NCBI GenBank assembly: GCA_951406725.2
Contig: OX597820.1
Span: 24,800,001-24,864,000 of the forward strand
DNA length: 64,000 nt
Source: Octopus vulgaris
Lineage: Eukaryota
Reading direction: 5' to 3'
The first letter of the stretch is position 1. Every line of letters starts with the position of its first letter. Shown piece after piece: positions 2,441 through 60,493 of this stretch. Under the pieces are notes generated by a model. That model was given only the letters and a program-made list of their open reading frames with translations. It was not told the DNA's origin and did not search any database. The translations under genes were made by a program, and so were the position numbers.

Positions 2441-2522
2441 TATATATAAATGTAACCGCGTGTGTACAGTTCGCGAATTATTTTTCACCGTCTTCCCTTC
2501 TCTTGATTTTTCCTTTTCCTAT

Positions 2523-2557
2523 GTTTCTGGCGAAGAGCTCCGCTCGAAACGTAAGAC
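2523..2557 (+). ncRNA. Minimal hammerhead-like motif (ACGT-helix-III family, A6G core variant)
   Basis: gttt-CTGGCGA-A-GAGC(tcc)GCTC-GAAA-CG-TA-agac, inside a ~200-bp repeat abutting (TA)n. Confidence 0.5.
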
Positions 2558-4689
2558 CCTCCTTCTTCCTTTCCTTCCTGAGCGTCCAATAATACTATAT
2601 TTGTTCCACGTCCTCGCGTTGTTGTGTTTTCTCTTTGTGTTTTCATGTTTGGATTAACTATATATATATATATATAAAATATATATATATATACATACAT
2701 ACATACATATATATATATATATATATATATATATATATATATATATATATATATATATATATATATATATGGATATATATACATATATATTCTTTCTTTC
2801 TTGGTCTAGCCGTTGTCCGTGCAACATTGATATTCCTCTCTGTGTTTGTGAAATCTTGTATCCCTGCTGTATGGCTTCATTTCCACATACGCCAGCTTAA
2901 TTTATTTCGTCTTTAGTCGAAAGACACCTGTTGTTATGTCCTGTTATTATTTTTATTGTATTTTATTTTATTTGTGTAACATTGTCCGTTTTTTCCGTCC
3001 TTGTTTTTGCATACATTCGCTGCTTTCTTCCAAGGAATCTAATGCTCTTAGATTAGTTTTTGCTTGGGCCTGGCCAGATTGGAGCAATCTCAAGTATAAT
3101 CAGCCGAAATTGCGAAGATAATCTGGTACTTGACTGACGAAAGAAAACTTCGAATGACCCGTCATTGTTTTCTTTGTATCGTCTATCTGGATGTTTTGTC
3201 GTCCCATTTTGTATTTTTATATATGTGTGTGTGTGTGTACATACACACACGCGCGTGTACACACACACACACACACACATATATATATATATATATATAC
3301 AGATAGATAGATAGATAGATAGATAGATAGATAGATAGATAGATAGATAGATAGATATATAGATAGATAGATAGATAGATAGATAGATAGACAGATATAG
3401 AAAGATAGATAGATATAAAAATAAATAAATAGCTAGATACATATATATATATATACATACAATCATATGTATAGTGTATATATATATATATATATATATA
3501 TATATATATAATATATATATATATTGTGAGTGCGTGTTTTTATATACATATATATATATATATATATATATATATATATATATATATATATATATATATA
3601 TATATATATATAGTCATCAAATGTCTGTTTATGCTCATATCACAATGTATGTATTTGTAAGCCTGATTAAGGCTAACTGTATTAGAAATGATAAATCGTT
3701 AAACCAACTATGAATACAAATTAGACAGATCTATCTCTGTATACCTCGATGTTATTTATTGAGGTCAGGTGTTAATCAGAAGTTATTTAACTTCCATTTT
3801 GACTCTTTCACTATGTTTTTTTTTTTTTTGTATTATCCTGATTGTTTAAGCTTTATCTCATTTGAGATATAACCTAGAGGGATATGTTTTTGTAAAGTTA
3901 TTCATAGATTTGTAAGTTCTGTAATTTAGATGTGCAACAATTTTGTGAACTATCTACGCTTTTTAAGACAACATCTCGGAGATGTAATTGCCAGACAAGT
4001 GATTTGATCTGAGAGCGTGTTTTGGAATTGAAGCGTTTGCAGCCTGGAAGATTCATATTAGCCATTCAAAGCACACAAAGACTGTTAGCTTCACTTAAAG
4101 TTTATTATTAAATGTCAAAATTTTCGTCACAGAAACTGCAACCTGCTTTGAATTGTGGCGAGATGATTATCTCCCTTGTAATAGCCTTGACCAATAGAGA
4201 GACGACGTGTGAATATAAGATCGGTTATATCGCTTTCTTGGGCTGAAATGTATATAAATAAATAAAAATTATCTGAATATGATTTCAGGAGTCCTGGTGG
4301 AATCGATATCAGACAGAAATCTTTTGAAAGTTTGCATATTTTTCCATTGCAGCTGTTTTTCAGATATGGATACAATTAGACAAATGCAATATACGAAGAG
4401 AAAAAATGCTCCCAAATTACAAACGAAAATAAATAATTCAAAGGAAATAACAGAAAATTTTCTGGAAAATAGTAGCAAAGGAAACATTAGCATAAAACCG
4501 AAAATAACGGCAGATTTTCAAAGAAATGCACGTTAAAAAGTGAAAGGGAGAGGGAAAGGTAGAAAAAAGAAGGAAACGGAGAGAGGGAGGTGAAATAAAT
4601 AAGTGAAAGAAACATTAGCAGAAGTTACTGCAGAAGTTACTCAGAGGTTTTGCAAGCTTTTCTAAATCCATTGTAATGCTGGAAATCTT

Positions 4690-5015
4690 TCCGCGTCGTC
4701 AGCCGATATCTCAAAGTCATAAGTGTTTCACCATTTAGCCTGTAAGCTTTAGCTGACTGGGGGCAGTGAGGACGGAGCTAGTCTTCACCTACGGAAGGGT
4801 TTCACTTGCGGTCTCTTATCAACCATAGGCAGTTTGAGCAACTTTCAGCTACGAACTTAATTCCTTGATTGCTTCAAGTTGTCTAGGTTCCAGATCTATC
4901 TTCTGCAAGAAATAGTGCACTGATCTAGATGGAAAGCCGTGGAAGCCGACTTCAATGGAGAATGGGGTCGCATGCCAGCCCTTGACAAAAGCTTCATCGA
5001 CTAAGTCCTGAAACA
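4690..5015 (-). mobile_element. Hero-type (RLE) non-LTR retrotransposon 3' fragment
   Basis: FQDLVDEA..KGW.A..FSIEVGFHGFP matches the KYQxLV...IEVGCRGF motif of restriction-like endonuclease LINEs. Confidence 0.7.
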
Positions 5016-5440
5016 TTAATATGATAAATAAATATGGAATCAAATTAATAAATACAAAGAAAATGTATTGGCTTTTTAAAACTCTTATTGCTTAATAGAG
5101 GACTGTCCTAATATGTGTTACTGCTGCTGCTGCTGCTGCTACTACTGCCACTACTTCTGCTGCCGTTGTTGTTGTTATTGTTATTTAGCCACTGGTCAGT
5201 ATCGATTGAGGGGACATACGAACAAAGGCTTTCTAACCTTGACCACCAACACGTCTCTTTATATACCCGAGAGTACACTATGCAATATGCACTTTTTTCT
5301 TAATACAGTAAAACATATTACTGAGATGTTCTTGCATAGCAAGTGATCTGATGTGAGATCGTGTGCTGAACGAAAACAATTGCTGCGTGGAAGGTGTTTA
5401 TAAGCCATTTAAGAAACACACACAAACCGCAGCACGGAAT

Positions 5441-5491
5441 TTTGTCAGTGAACAGGTCGCAGTCTCAAAGCAACGAAAATATTTTGACAAA
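5441..5491 (+). ncRNA. Minimal hammerhead with swapped G3-C8 core, copy B
   Basis: tttgtca-GTGAACA-G-GTCGC(9 nt)GCAAC-GAAA-ATAT-TT-tgacaaa. 7-bp helix I, one mismatch in helix II. Confidence 0.6.
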
Positions 5492-57769: not shown

Positions 57770-58003
57770 ACACAGAAAAACACTGGGAATAAAACAACAG
57801 GGATCCTACTATAACGAGATAAACACGTGAACTGGGCGAGCAGAGGCTGCAGTTATTGGGAGATCGTGTGCGAGCTCAGCGCCGACTAGCGATCGCTTGT
57901 ATCAAACTTGCTAGTACTGCGGATTTCCACTCGTACTTCAAGACAAAAATTCGCACAGCAAATTACTCGTACAATGGTTCCCTCGTAATGCGAGGTTCTA
58001 CTG
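57770..58003 (-). mobile_element. Tigger/pogo-type terminal fragment
   Basis: Minus strand begins TA|CAGTAGAACCTCGCATTACGAG, a Tigger-like TIR. Confidence 0.6.
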
Positions 58004-58195
58004 TATAATATATGATATATATATATATATATGAGCGTCCAATAATACTATATTTGTTCCACGTCCTCGCGTTGTTGTGTTTTCTCTTTGTGTTTTCATA
58101 TTTGGATTAACTATATATATATATATATATATATATATATATATATACACACACACACAAACATACATGCATACAGACAGACGTATACATACACA

Positions 58196-58548
58196 CAGGG
58201 TGATTCAAAAGTCTCCATACTTTTATTTTTTTATAAGAAACGGTTCATAACATCCCCTAGATCTCCTCTTGATTTCTATTTTGGGGGGCATTTGAAAGGC
58301 ATGGTGTATCGCGGAAAGATAAAAGACATAAATCATTTGAAGGAAGGCATCACCAACTAATTTGCACACGTATCACCAAATGTGTTCTTACGAGTTCACA
58401 ATGAGTGGGGTAAATGTATTGCAATGTGTATTCAAAACATTGGCAACCACATAGAGCCTGTTAAATAATTAAAAAAAACTGTTCTTATATACTGTTTCTT
58501 GTAAAAAGATACATTGTTCCTATGTATGGCGACTTTTGAATCACCCTG
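58196..58548 (+). mobile_element. Tc1/mariner internally deleted derivative
   Basis: TIRs cagggtgattcaaaagtc / gacttttgaatcaccctg|TA. Internal PRSPLDFYFGGHLKGMVY resembles the WPPRSPDLxPLDFxLWGxLK motif. Confidence 0.85.
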
Positions 58549-59583
58549 TACATATAGATTGACAGACAGACAGATAGATAGATAGATAGATAGATAGATA
58601 GATAGATAGATAGATAGATAGATAGATAGATAGATAGATAGATAGATAGATAGATAGATAGATAGACAGACAGACAGACAGACAGATAGATAGATAGATA
58701 GATAGATAGATAGATAGATAGATAGATAGATAGATAGATAGATAGATAGATAGATAGATACATGGATGGATGGATGGATGGATGGATGGATGGATGGATG
58801 GATGGATGGATGGATGGATGGACGGATGGATACATACATACAAACATATAGACATACATACATACAAACATATATACATAGATACATAAATACATACAAA
58901 CATACATGCAAACATACTTATATACGTATATACATAAATATATACAAACATATATAGATACATACAAACATACATACATTCATGCACATATAGATATATA
59001 CATTCGTGCATATATAGATATATACATACATACATACATATATCTATGCACACATACATACATACATACATGTATTACACACATACATAAATGACGAGTT
59101 TCTAGTTTCTGTCTACCAAATTCATTCACAAGGTATTGGTCTGCTCGGTGCGATAGTAGTAAACACTTGCCCAAGGTGCTGTACATTGAGAATGCGCCCG
59201 GAAACATTTGTACATCGAGCTTCTTAACCAAACAGTTATGCCTGTTCCTATTTTGCTTTCATTGTTACGACAAGAAGTCATTCACCTTCAGCGGTCAACA
59301 TTTTACAGCTATGTAAATGTTATTGCGACAATGACCGTATTTATTAGTATTTTTTAAGTTAACAGGCTGCAACAATTGTTATCGGTTACTGCGAGTAGTG
59401 GTCAGTGAATGCCGGTGAATTGTTCAATAGCAACTTAAAACGGACGATTCTCCCTTGATATTAAGCTGTCGACAATACTATCGTGGATCTAATTGCATAA
59501 CCTAAATACAAAAGAATATAAATTCGTATACAGACGTACACACACATTAATATATGTTGATAGGTAAATATATATATATATAT

Positions 59584-59689
59584 AGTCTTCGACGTTTCGA
59601 GCCCACGCTCTTCGACAGAAAGGGACGAGAAGAGAAAAATCCTCTCATTCCTTTCTGTCGAAGAGCGTGGGCTCGAAACGTCGAAGACT
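59584..59689. ncRNA. Inverted pair of minimal hammerhead-like motifs (ACGT family, A6U, GUC site)
   Basis: + copy cttt-CTGTCGA-A-GAGC(gtgg)GCTC-GAAA-CG-TC-gaag (59651-59686), and an exact reverse complement at 59584-59623. Confidence 0.6.
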
Positions 59690-60493
59690 TTTCCATTCTG
59701 CCCGAACGTCAAACTAATACAGCTGCTTGCTATTTCTTCGCCTGTCTTCGTCTTTTGTTTTCTGTAAATCTGATCTACACACACACACATACACACAATA
59801 TATATATATATATATATATGTGTGTGTGTGTGTGTATATATATATATGCTACTTAATATACATGTATATATATATATATGTAAATATATGTATGCATATA
59901 TGCATACATATATATGTATGTTTATGTATGTATATATTCATAGGGATAGATGCATGTGTTTATATATATATATGTATGTATATATGTATATACGCATATA
60001 TATTTGTGTCTGTGTTCTCGCGCGCGCCGTGTGAAATTTTGCGAAACAGTAAACAAACCTAGAGATAACTTTTTTCTTTGTGATTCTCAATATGAAGGGA
60101 AGATAATTTCAAGAAGCAAGAGATCACTCAAGTCACTTTACAAGCGTGGGGAAAATACATTCTGGTCCTTATTTACAAAGACATCTTTTGACATAAATTT
60201 CGGTCCAATGAAACTCGTCAGCATTTTATATCTAGCCGAGCGTGTAGATCTGTAGATAAATGCTTTGATATAGGAAAAGAGGTACAATTATTTTCGGCAA
60301 CATATAGTGTTACCGTTATCATTAAACTGGAGATTTTATGCTCGTCGCTTGATGGTTAGTCATTTGACGATAACTCTGTCTGATTAAAAGACCCTTTGGG
60401 TATCATTTGCTCATAAAAGAAAGCTAAGATGAAAACAGACAAATATTCAGAAAGCTTCATTTACAAAATGAGGAGTAAAGCTATATAAAACAT

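What the first reader, a model, noticed from the sequence alone, without database searches (positions are those of the whole stretch)
2455..59775. Diverse population of (TA)n-targeted mini-elements, each carrying a minimal hammerhead ribozyme
Seen: eight well-formed type-I hammerhead folds (5441+, 9271+, 10555+, 11276+, 11758-, 18598+, 52029-, 52421-) and about eight variant or decayed ones (2523, 6843, 44578, 51663, 56405, 57418, 59584 x2). Helices I and II are unrelated between families, but each keeps the core-helix II-GAAA order and a tiny self-complementary helix III (ACGT, ACCGGT, AATATT, ATCGCGAT, ACGTACGT, ATCACTGTGAT). Most lie in 150-650-bp non-coding islands bounded by (TA)n, several with inverted and partial-tandem ends. 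Established: Penelope-like elements carry minimal hammerheads with palindromic helix III in their pseudo-LTRs, which cleave as dimers, and non-LTR retrozymes are short hammerhead-bearing repeats with circular RNA intermediates. Inference: this genome hosts many non-autonomous ribozyme retroelements mobilised by PLE RT/GIY-YIG into TA microsatellites, at roughly one per 4 kb here. I do not know of this being described for cephalopods but cannot search the literature.
Basis: partly seen in the sequence, partly recalled or inferred. Interest (0 to 1): 0.88.

Follow-up and report, generated by a model that had tools for sequence, protein, structure and literature searches.

The report
Penelope stubs and hammerhead retrozyme parasites
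The hammerhead-shaped (predicted self-cutting) RNA motifs are real and come in two known kinds, short ends of Penelope-type jumping genes and four protein-free repeats whose insertion scars match those jumping genes, so the repeats are likely copied by Penelope enzymes, a proposed route that these scars make testable.

Summary
The motifs are real: 12 type-I hammerhead folds against 0.17 in shuffles; 12 of 14 have (TA)n just 3' (p 5e-6). 15 of the 16 listed sites are hammerheads or decayed copies; 57418 is not. They are two classes, not one population. (1) Families A/A2, B and C are pLTR ends of Penelope-like elements (PLEs); RT/GIY-YIG parents were found for A, B, C. B stubs start at one base, carry an untemplated G (18 of 32) and share haplotypes with long copies: likely run-off cDNAs of the capped RNA start, not separate elements. 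(2) D, E, F, H are ORF-less head-to-tail units (476, ~330, 427, 545 nt; one D array has 31 or more units): non-LTR retrozymes. D, F, H show the PLE scar (inverted arm, two fixed 3' ends, tail on one arm, TA target) like B. G and I have no parent found. Cleavage, circles and the partner PLE are untested. PLE hammerheads, TA targeting in octopus (Hydra-1_Obim) and mollusc retrozymes are published; this scan saw both classes before on other DNA.

The parts
117..316 (+).
   Evidence: parent GIY-YIG ORF upstream in L207/L209
2449..2658 (+). Family A PLE stub, core 2527-2533 (A6G in this copy; family majority CUGACGA), ends in (TA)n
   Evidence: parent ORF colinear in L484/485/487/488
5319..5496 (.). 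Old family B copy: inverted arm 5319-5429, sense arm 5429-5496, G3-C8 core 5448-5454, helix II damaged
6762..6947 (-). Family A stub, core 6873-6867 (CCGACGA)
9238..9402 (+). Family G young linear mini-element, core 9275-9281, U10.1.U11.1; fixed 5' end; no parent found
10209..10866 (+). Family D retrozyme: inverted arm 10209-10304, sense arm 10305-10866 (476-nt unit plus tail), canonical core 10562-10568, helix III AUCACUGUGAU
10911..11496 (+). Family H retrozyme (545-nt unit): inverted arm with tail to 11144, sense arm 11143-11496, core 11280-11286
11618..11822 (-). Family B PLE stub with tail, G3-C8 core 11800-11794, starts at the fixed 5' base with an extra G
   Evidence: parent ORF in L206, L262-L268
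18450..18740 (+). Family I old element (~78% identity): inverted tail 18450-18570, sense part with core 18605-18611 and long helix II; no parent looked for beyond 1.5 kb flanks
44505..44655 (-). Decayed family A stub (core CCGACAA, broken)
51600..51797 (+). Family A2 stub, core 51668-51674 (CUGUGGA; family majority CUGUCGA)
51835..52280 (-). Family F retrozyme, 1.05 units of a 427-nt unit, canonical core 52094-52088, helix III ACCGGU
52285..52876 (-). Family E older retrozyme (~322-335-nt unit): sense arm 52285-52664, inverted arm 52651-52876, core 52471-52465, helix III AUCGCGAU
56341..56547 (+). Decayed family A stub (core intact at 56409, GAAA box lost)
59584..59790 (+). Family A2 stub with short inverted arm (cores 59618- and 59655+, CUGUCGA)
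60494..60958 (.).

Best explanation
The hammerhead islands are two products of Penelope-like (PLE) retrotransposition: short pLTR stubs of RT/GIY-YIG-coding PLEs (families A, B, C; A2 by homology), and ORF-less head-to-tail retrozymes (D, E, F, H) that are likely copied in trans by PLE enzymes. Shown: parents with ORFs for A, B, C; unit structure, absence of an ORF, fixed 3' ends, inverted arms and TA flanks for D, F, H (E noisier). Inferred steps: the endonuclease cuts (TA)n (or AT-rich DNA for family C); both cut ends prime reverse transcription at two fixed internal sites 60-120 nt apart downstream of the hammerhead, which gives an inverted arm and a tail on one arm only; on a PLE transcript, priming in the 5' pLTR runs off the capped start about 20 nt upstream of the core and leaves a 150-210-nt stub with an extra G; on a retrozyme RNA (re-ligated circle or uncut multimer) copying passes through the hammerhead and stops at scattered points, giving one or more units. 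The retrozyme hammerheads are predicted to cleave as dimers through their 6-11-nt palindromic helix III. Most genomic copies are dead on arrival.
For: Parents: B joins a >=755-aa ORF (RT motifs; GIY-YIG E 1.6e-4 on its C-terminal part; three segments match the 775-aa PLE at E 5e-6 to 2e-5) through a ~1.1-kb 3' UTR in L206, L262-L268; C joins a related GIY-YIG ORF in L207, L209; A is colinear with a degenerate RT+GIY-YIG ORF in 4 of 5 long loci fetched. B stubs: of 70 pattern-defined loci 29 long, 41 short; 39 of 41 short start within 3 nt of one base; 18 of 32 not explained by an inverted arm have G at -1 where the template has T (flank background 10%, p 2e-6); two SNPs occur at like rates in long (13, 9 of 30), short-G (12, 9 of 25) and other short copies (9, 5 of 15). 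Retrozymes: periods 476 (22 of 29 repeat spacings), 427 (20 of 28), 543-549 (20 of 27), ~311-335; longest Met-ORF in three joined units 43, 95, 49, 28 aa; a D array of >=31 units; (TA)n at the 3' end in 28 of 30 D, 20 of 20 F, 19 of 20 H, 12 of 20 E. Two-armed insertions with one short and one tailed end vs both alike: D 15 vs 1 (of 23), F 17 vs 0 (of 18), H 12 vs 1 (of 18), G 34 vs 3 (of 37), PLE family B 24 vs 0 (of 25). 56 of 60 retrozyme 5' arms run across the cleavage site, 1 of 60 starts within 5 nt of it. D and F fold with z -7.2 and -6.8. Helix III duplex energy -8.3 to -10.1 kcal/mol in D, E, F, H vs +2.2 to -2.9 in A, B, C, G. An active TA-targeting PLE with many identical 775-aa ORFs exists in this genome. 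Two internal RT start sites and the tail are PLE-specific in vitro (PMC11167929).
Against: No cleavage, circle or transcription start was observed. No retrozyme unit or family G showed local similarity (z>4) to the pLTR regions of the two PLEs compared or to A, B, C, so the partner PLE is not identified. The extra G was clear only in B; in C the template already has G there, A (25 loci) and G (30 loci) showed no G excess. No copy was found in which the B pLTR continues 3' into its own ORF, so the stub was not shown to be the transcript's 5' end. Several majority cores carry changes expected to lower activity (A6U in A2, U10.1.U11.1 in G, H, I, U17 in B, C, H; recalled knowledge). In vitro, 8 of 9 Xenopus retrozyme dimers did not cleave (bioRxiv 2026), and hammerhead mutants did not block PLE insertion. 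Genome samples are best hits or first-listed matches, not random draws.
Confidence: 0.82

Rival explanations
1. All islands are independent non-autonomous ribozyme retroelements with their own circular RNA cycle.
For: True in form for D, E, F, H; G (160 exact matches, none of 30 extending more than 11 nt upstream) may be a discrete mini-element; many stubs have sharp ends.
Against: A, B, C continue upstream into PLE ORFs; B short and long copies share haplotypes; no head-to-tail period was seen for A, B or G in the loci shown.
Confidence: 0.06
2. D, E, F, H are mobilised by PLEs but from linear multimeric read-through transcripts of tandem arrays; no RNA circle is made and the hammerhead is incidental (close to the satellite-birth model discussed in bioRxiv 10.64898/2026.07.22.740005).
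For: Arrays of up to >=31 units exist as templates; copies crossing the cleavage site fit uncut multimers as well as circles; hammerhead cleavage was dispensable for insertion in vitro.
Against: Four unrelated units each keep an intact core with a strong dimer-forming helix III and D and F are highly self-paired, as for mussel and coral retrozyme circles (PMC7229834).
Confidence: 0.3
3. The fixed 5' end of the stubs is a splice acceptor or an RT pause at the base of the hammerhead, not the capped start.
For: Long B copies have a branch-point-like CTAAC, a pyrimidine tract and AG at the boundary; the Penelope intron ends at helix I in D. virilis (PMC4209133).
Against: A pause does not predict an untemplated G.
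Confidence: 0.15
4. The retrozymes are copied by a LINE or another non-PLE machinery.
For: A LINE remnant lies in the window; no sequence link to a PLE was found.
Against: No poly(A) or fixed single 3' end; two internal 3' ends with tail on one arm match PLE family B in the same genome.
Confidence: 0.04

Closest known systems
Minimal hammerheads in PLE pseudo-LTRs (Cervera and De la Pena 2014, PMC4209133; parts 1-2 of 4 read)
   Same: Type-I motif, tiny palindromic helix III, extra base between 9 and 10.1, U3-A8 core variant, mostly single motifs from truncated PLEs, close pairs on opposite strands, high family diversity per genome.
   Different: Here a natural G3-C8 family (B) and a fixed A6U family (A2) occur; the stubs have a precise 5' end with an extra G and are not random truncations.
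Hydra-1_Obim and other (TA)n-targeting EN+ PLEs (Craig et al. 2021, PMC8557442; passages, section 11, supplement passages)
   Same: Octopus PLE with hammerhead, palindromic helix III and (TA)n preference; inverted 5' arm; tail often at one end only.
   Different: The parents found here for A, B, C are not Hydra-type by their motifs (A resembles the Neptune-like 775-aa element; B and C form another group; no tree was built). Tails here are 40-120 nt.
Animal non-LTR retrozymes (Cervera and de la Pena 2020, PMC7229834; passages and section 14)
   Same: Non-coding 170-500-nt head-to-tail units, one type-I hammerhead per unit, low GC, self-paired, dimers to long arrays; known in mussel.
   Different: Units to 545 nt; dispersed two-armed insertions into (TA)n with two fixed 3' ends, not mentioned in the passages read; circles not shown here.
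Retrozymes as non-autonomous PLE derivatives (Li, Clavereau, Pollet 2026, bioRxiv 10.64898/2026.07.22.740005; parts 1-3 of 5 read, supplements not seen)
   Same: Same overall conclusion.
   Different: That study used co-occurrence and pLTR homology in vertebrates, three insects and a coral; here the link is the insertion footprint, and no pLTR homology was found.
Poseidon_Ac in vitro mechanism (Frangieh et al. 2024, PMC11167929; parts 1-2 of 4 read)
   Same: Two internal RT start sites define the tail; both strands cut and extended; AT-rich targets; C3G/G8C double change keeps partial cleavage.
   Different: Different clades; no cap run-off stub or trans substrate described in the parts read.

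Membership tests
Minimal type-I hammerhead ribozyme | Core boxes in order helix I - CUGANGA - helix II - GAAA - helix III - UH - helix I | tested here: met
   12 folds vs 0.17 in shuffles; B and C keep the 3-8 pair as G-C and U-A
Minimal type-I hammerhead ribozyme | Short self-complementary helix III allowing a dimer | tested here: met
   duplex energies; strong in D, E, F, H, weak in A, B, C, G
Minimal type-I hammerhead ribozyme | Compensatory changes in helices | tested here: inconclusive
   none evident within families; present between homologous B and C
Minimal type-I hammerhead ribozyme | Self-cleavage | not testable with these tools
   no raw reads; no assay
EN+ Penelope-like element (families A, B, C) | RT and GIY-YIG ORF upstream of the hammerhead-bearing end | tested here: met
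   (for C only the thumb/EN part was recovered)
EN+ Penelope-like element (families A, B, C) | Inverted 5' arm and optional tail at one end | tested here: met
   B 24 of 25 two-armed loci; C two 3' ends and inversions; A one main 3' end in 25 loci
EN+ Penelope-like element (families A, B, C) | Partial-tandem pLTR upstream of the ORF | tested here: inconclusive
   not seen in the 8 long B loci, all 5'-truncated or inverted; seen for the 775-aa element
EN+ Penelope-like element (families A, B, C) | Clade (Neptune, Nematis, Hydra, Poseidon) by RT phylogeny | not tested
EN+ Penelope-like element (families G, I) | Coding parent | tested here: inconclusive
   G: none in 21 longest, 30 first-listed and one extra locus; I: 20 loci viewed in part
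Non-LTR retrozyme (D, E, F, H) | Head-to-tail unit of a few hundred nt with one type-I hammerhead each | tested here: met
   full dimers or longer seen for D and H, F spacings of ~430, E mostly 1-2 units
Non-LTR retrozyme (D, E, F, H) | No protein coding, low GC, strong self-pairing | tested here: met
   longest Met-ORF 28-95 aa, GC 33-38%; z -7.2 and -6.8 for D and F; E and H not shuffled
Non-LTR retrozyme (D, E, F, H) | Abundant circular RNA | not testable with these tools
   only assembled contigs of runs guessed to be RNA
Non-LTR retrozyme (A, B, C stubs) | Head-to-tail non-coding unit | tested here: not met
   they continue into PLE UTRs and ORFs

The most novel reading that the evidence does not exclude
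This genome records the PLE copying cycle directly: both ends of one break prime at two fixed internal RNA sites; priming in the 5' pLTR yields LTR-like strong-stop cDNAs that run off the cap and integrate as stubs; and several young, viroid-like circular ribozyme RNAs, unrelated in sequence to any PLE, are still parasitising an active TA-targeting PLE by offering those two priming sites as structure, with dimer-competent hammerheads kept under selection only in the parasites.
Probability: 0.4. Interest if true: 0.72.

Novelty: new member of a known kind. Interest (0 to 1): 0.47.

Why it matters
How animal retrozymes get into DNA and what the PLE hammerhead is for are open questions. Here young retrozyme families (96-100% identical copies) and active PLEs sit in one genome with the same insertion scar and base-precise priming sites, so trans-mobilisation, circle formation and cap run-off can each be tested with defined RNAs. 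For annotation, many short 'unknown' or SINE-like repeats in such genomes are probably PLE stubs and retrozymes. The parts themselves are known kinds.

Tried and rejected
Rfam gave no hammerhead (the shown rows are microsatellite-driven miRNA hits). The repeat finder was swamped by microsatellites. 57418 rejected as a hammerhead. A parent for G was sought in three samples and at a 1.7-kb inverted pair, which proved to be two separate insertions; the ORFs beside G in L179 and L183 belong to other PLEs. Hydra-like loci (30 fetched) and the 775-aa PLE (30 loci) shared none of the window's hammerhead families. Pile-up of retrozyme 5' ends at the cleavage site: not seen. Sequencing runs: no RNA holder listed; in three runs guessed to be RNA, contigs cover the D unit and its head-to-tail junction, which also exists in DNA, and no splice joint was listed at the B boundary; neither is used as evidence. 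One search failed to remove duplicate loci, so its arm counts are not used; one search counts are (duplicates removed by flanking sequence, a few may remain). Lunse et al. 2017 is not held, so whether natural G3-C8, A6U or U10.1.U11.1 variants are already described there is unchecked.

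
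Full report
Setting. The window is G000:C7:24800001-24864000 in a 2.8-Gb genome. That it is octopus-like is an inference from size, repeat content and earlier scan notes; I did not test it. It holds exons of an ionotropic glutamate receptor gene on the + strand (17715-18005 matches GluN3A at E 2e-7; 9619-9747 only weakly, E 0.3).

Observation. Hammerhead folds exceed chance: strict 3 vs 0.017 (60 shuffles); relaxed 12 vs 0.17, maximum 1 (100 shuffles). The relaxed rules were set after seeing the sites, so the strict count is the cleaner test. 15 of the 16 listed sites are hammerheads or decayed family members; 57418 is not. (TA)n lies 3' of 12 of 14 cores within 320 nt against 26% expected.

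Families. Each family was searched in G000 (best 15-30 loci per DNA search; first-listed loci per exact pattern). Exact-pattern counts, all lower bounds: B 490, C 498, D 550, F 226, G 160, H 26.

Class 1, PLE stubs. B continues upstream through a ~1.1-kb UTR into an RT plus C-terminal GIY-YIG ORF of at least 755 aa; Pfam gave no hit on the long ORF but GIY-YIG at E 1.6e-4 on its C-terminal 259 aa, and it matches the Pfam-confirmed 775-aa PLE in RT and EN segments. C continues into a related ORF end; B and C pLTRs are homologous, with G3-C8 vs U3-A8 cores. A continues through a CA-rich UTR of over 1.5 kb into a degenerate RT+EN ORF in 4 of 5 long loci. A2 is homologous to A; its parent was not fetched. 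In B, 70 loci were read: the first 30 listed and 40 of the next listed places, leaving out 15 that were arms of long inverted pairs, so the short:long ratio is biased but the G test is not. 41 were short; 39 of them start within 3 nt of one base; 25 of 41 have G at -1; after dropping 9 where an inverted arm could supply the base, 18 of 32 remain (p 2e-6). Long and short copies share haplotypes. An untemplated 5' G is the known trace of copying a cap (recalled). In C, 19 of 30 are short and start within 0-6 nt of one point, where G is templated. A and G show clustered starts without a G excess.

Class 2, retrozymes. D, F, H and E repeat head to tail with periods 476, 427, 545 and about 330 nt, lack ORFs and include a D array of at least 31 units. 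D, F, H are young (96-100% identity). Their 3' ends fall at two fixed unit positions followed by (TA)n; in two-armed insertions one arm ends at each site, as in PLE family B. 5' ends are scattered and nearly all arms cross the cleavage site, so the template was a re-ligated circle or an uncut multimer; DNA cannot tell which. Their helix III palindromes are much stronger than those of the stubs (four vs four families, a small sample).

Unplaced. G is a very young ~170/255-nt linear element with the same two-ended scar (34 of 37) and no parent found; I is old.

Candidate partner. A TA-targeting PLE with tandem 4271-nt units, many identical 775-aa ORFs, RVT_1 and GIY-YIG domains, its own hammerhead and two 3' ends is active. 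No sequence link to D, E, F, H or G was found.

Literature. Seen: PMC4209133 parts 1-2 of 4; PMC8557442 passages, section 11 and supplement passages, which list Hydra-1_Obim with a hammerhead and (TA)n preference; PMC7229834 passages and section 14; bioRxiv 10.64898/2026.07.22.740005 parts 1-3 of 5, supplements not seen; PMC11167929 parts 1-2 of 4; passages of PMC2377424, PMC3846280, PMC13282606 (no 'ribozyme' in its main text) and PMC6765202. Lunse 2017 was not available. Searches listed no paper on cephalopod retrozymes, on the PLE scar in retrozymes or on cap run-off stubs; most subscription papers and Repbase are not searched.

Earlier scan notes report the same two classes, the two-armed retrozymes and the cap-G stubs on other DNA. 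The cap-G and arm counts here were computed before or alongside reading those notes; the notes are not counted as support.

Verdict.

Noticed in passing
window 9620-9745 and 17715-18005 (+): Exons of an ionotropic glutamate receptor (best match GluN3A). Hammerheads G, D and H lie on the sense strand in or beside its introns; if D or H cleaved they could cut the pre-mRNA, though single copies are predicted to be weak.
   Followed up: partly
window 8529-8721 and 8958-9150: 193-bp perfect inverted repeat around microsatellites, no hammerhead seen; a very young fold-back insertion of unknown family.
   Followed up: no
window 2792-3170 and 15613-15984: ~385-bp repeat pair (79%) with CUGACGA followed by a long hairpin but no GAAA box in the usual place; a GAAA lies upstream, so a permuted or decayed hammerhead is possible.
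   Followed up: no
window 57200-57650: Large fold-back of a moderately repeated family that often forms such inversions; not a hammerhead at 57418.
   Followed up: partly
window 24976-27914 (-): LINE remnant with APE endonuclease and RT.
   Followed up: partly
window 42810-43217 (+) and 61600-62950: OTU-like protease fragment (E 7e-4) and a DDE transposase remnant (E 6e-3).
   Followed up: no
L430-L433 (G000:C1:27.84 Mb and others): Highly active PLE: 4271-nt tandem unit, an upstream ORF overlapping a 775-aa RT-EN ORF, hammerhead with CCGAAGA core and U10.1.U11.1, (TA)n targeting.
   Followed up: partly
L208:1603-6087: Young PLE of the B/C group with an open RT-EN frame and a core reading CUGAUGC; B, C and this element share a tail motif by eye.
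   Followed up: partly
G000:C1:64639757-64655025: Family D array of at least 31 units preceded by an inverted arm.
   Followed up: no
families G, H, I and the 775-aa PLE: U.U instead of the usual G-C at 10.1-11.1 in four unrelated families; family A2 has a fixed A6U core.
   Followed up: partly
window 60221 (-) and 605 (+): Further CUGACGA-GAAA arrangements with imperfect helices; possible decayed hammerheads.
   Followed up: no
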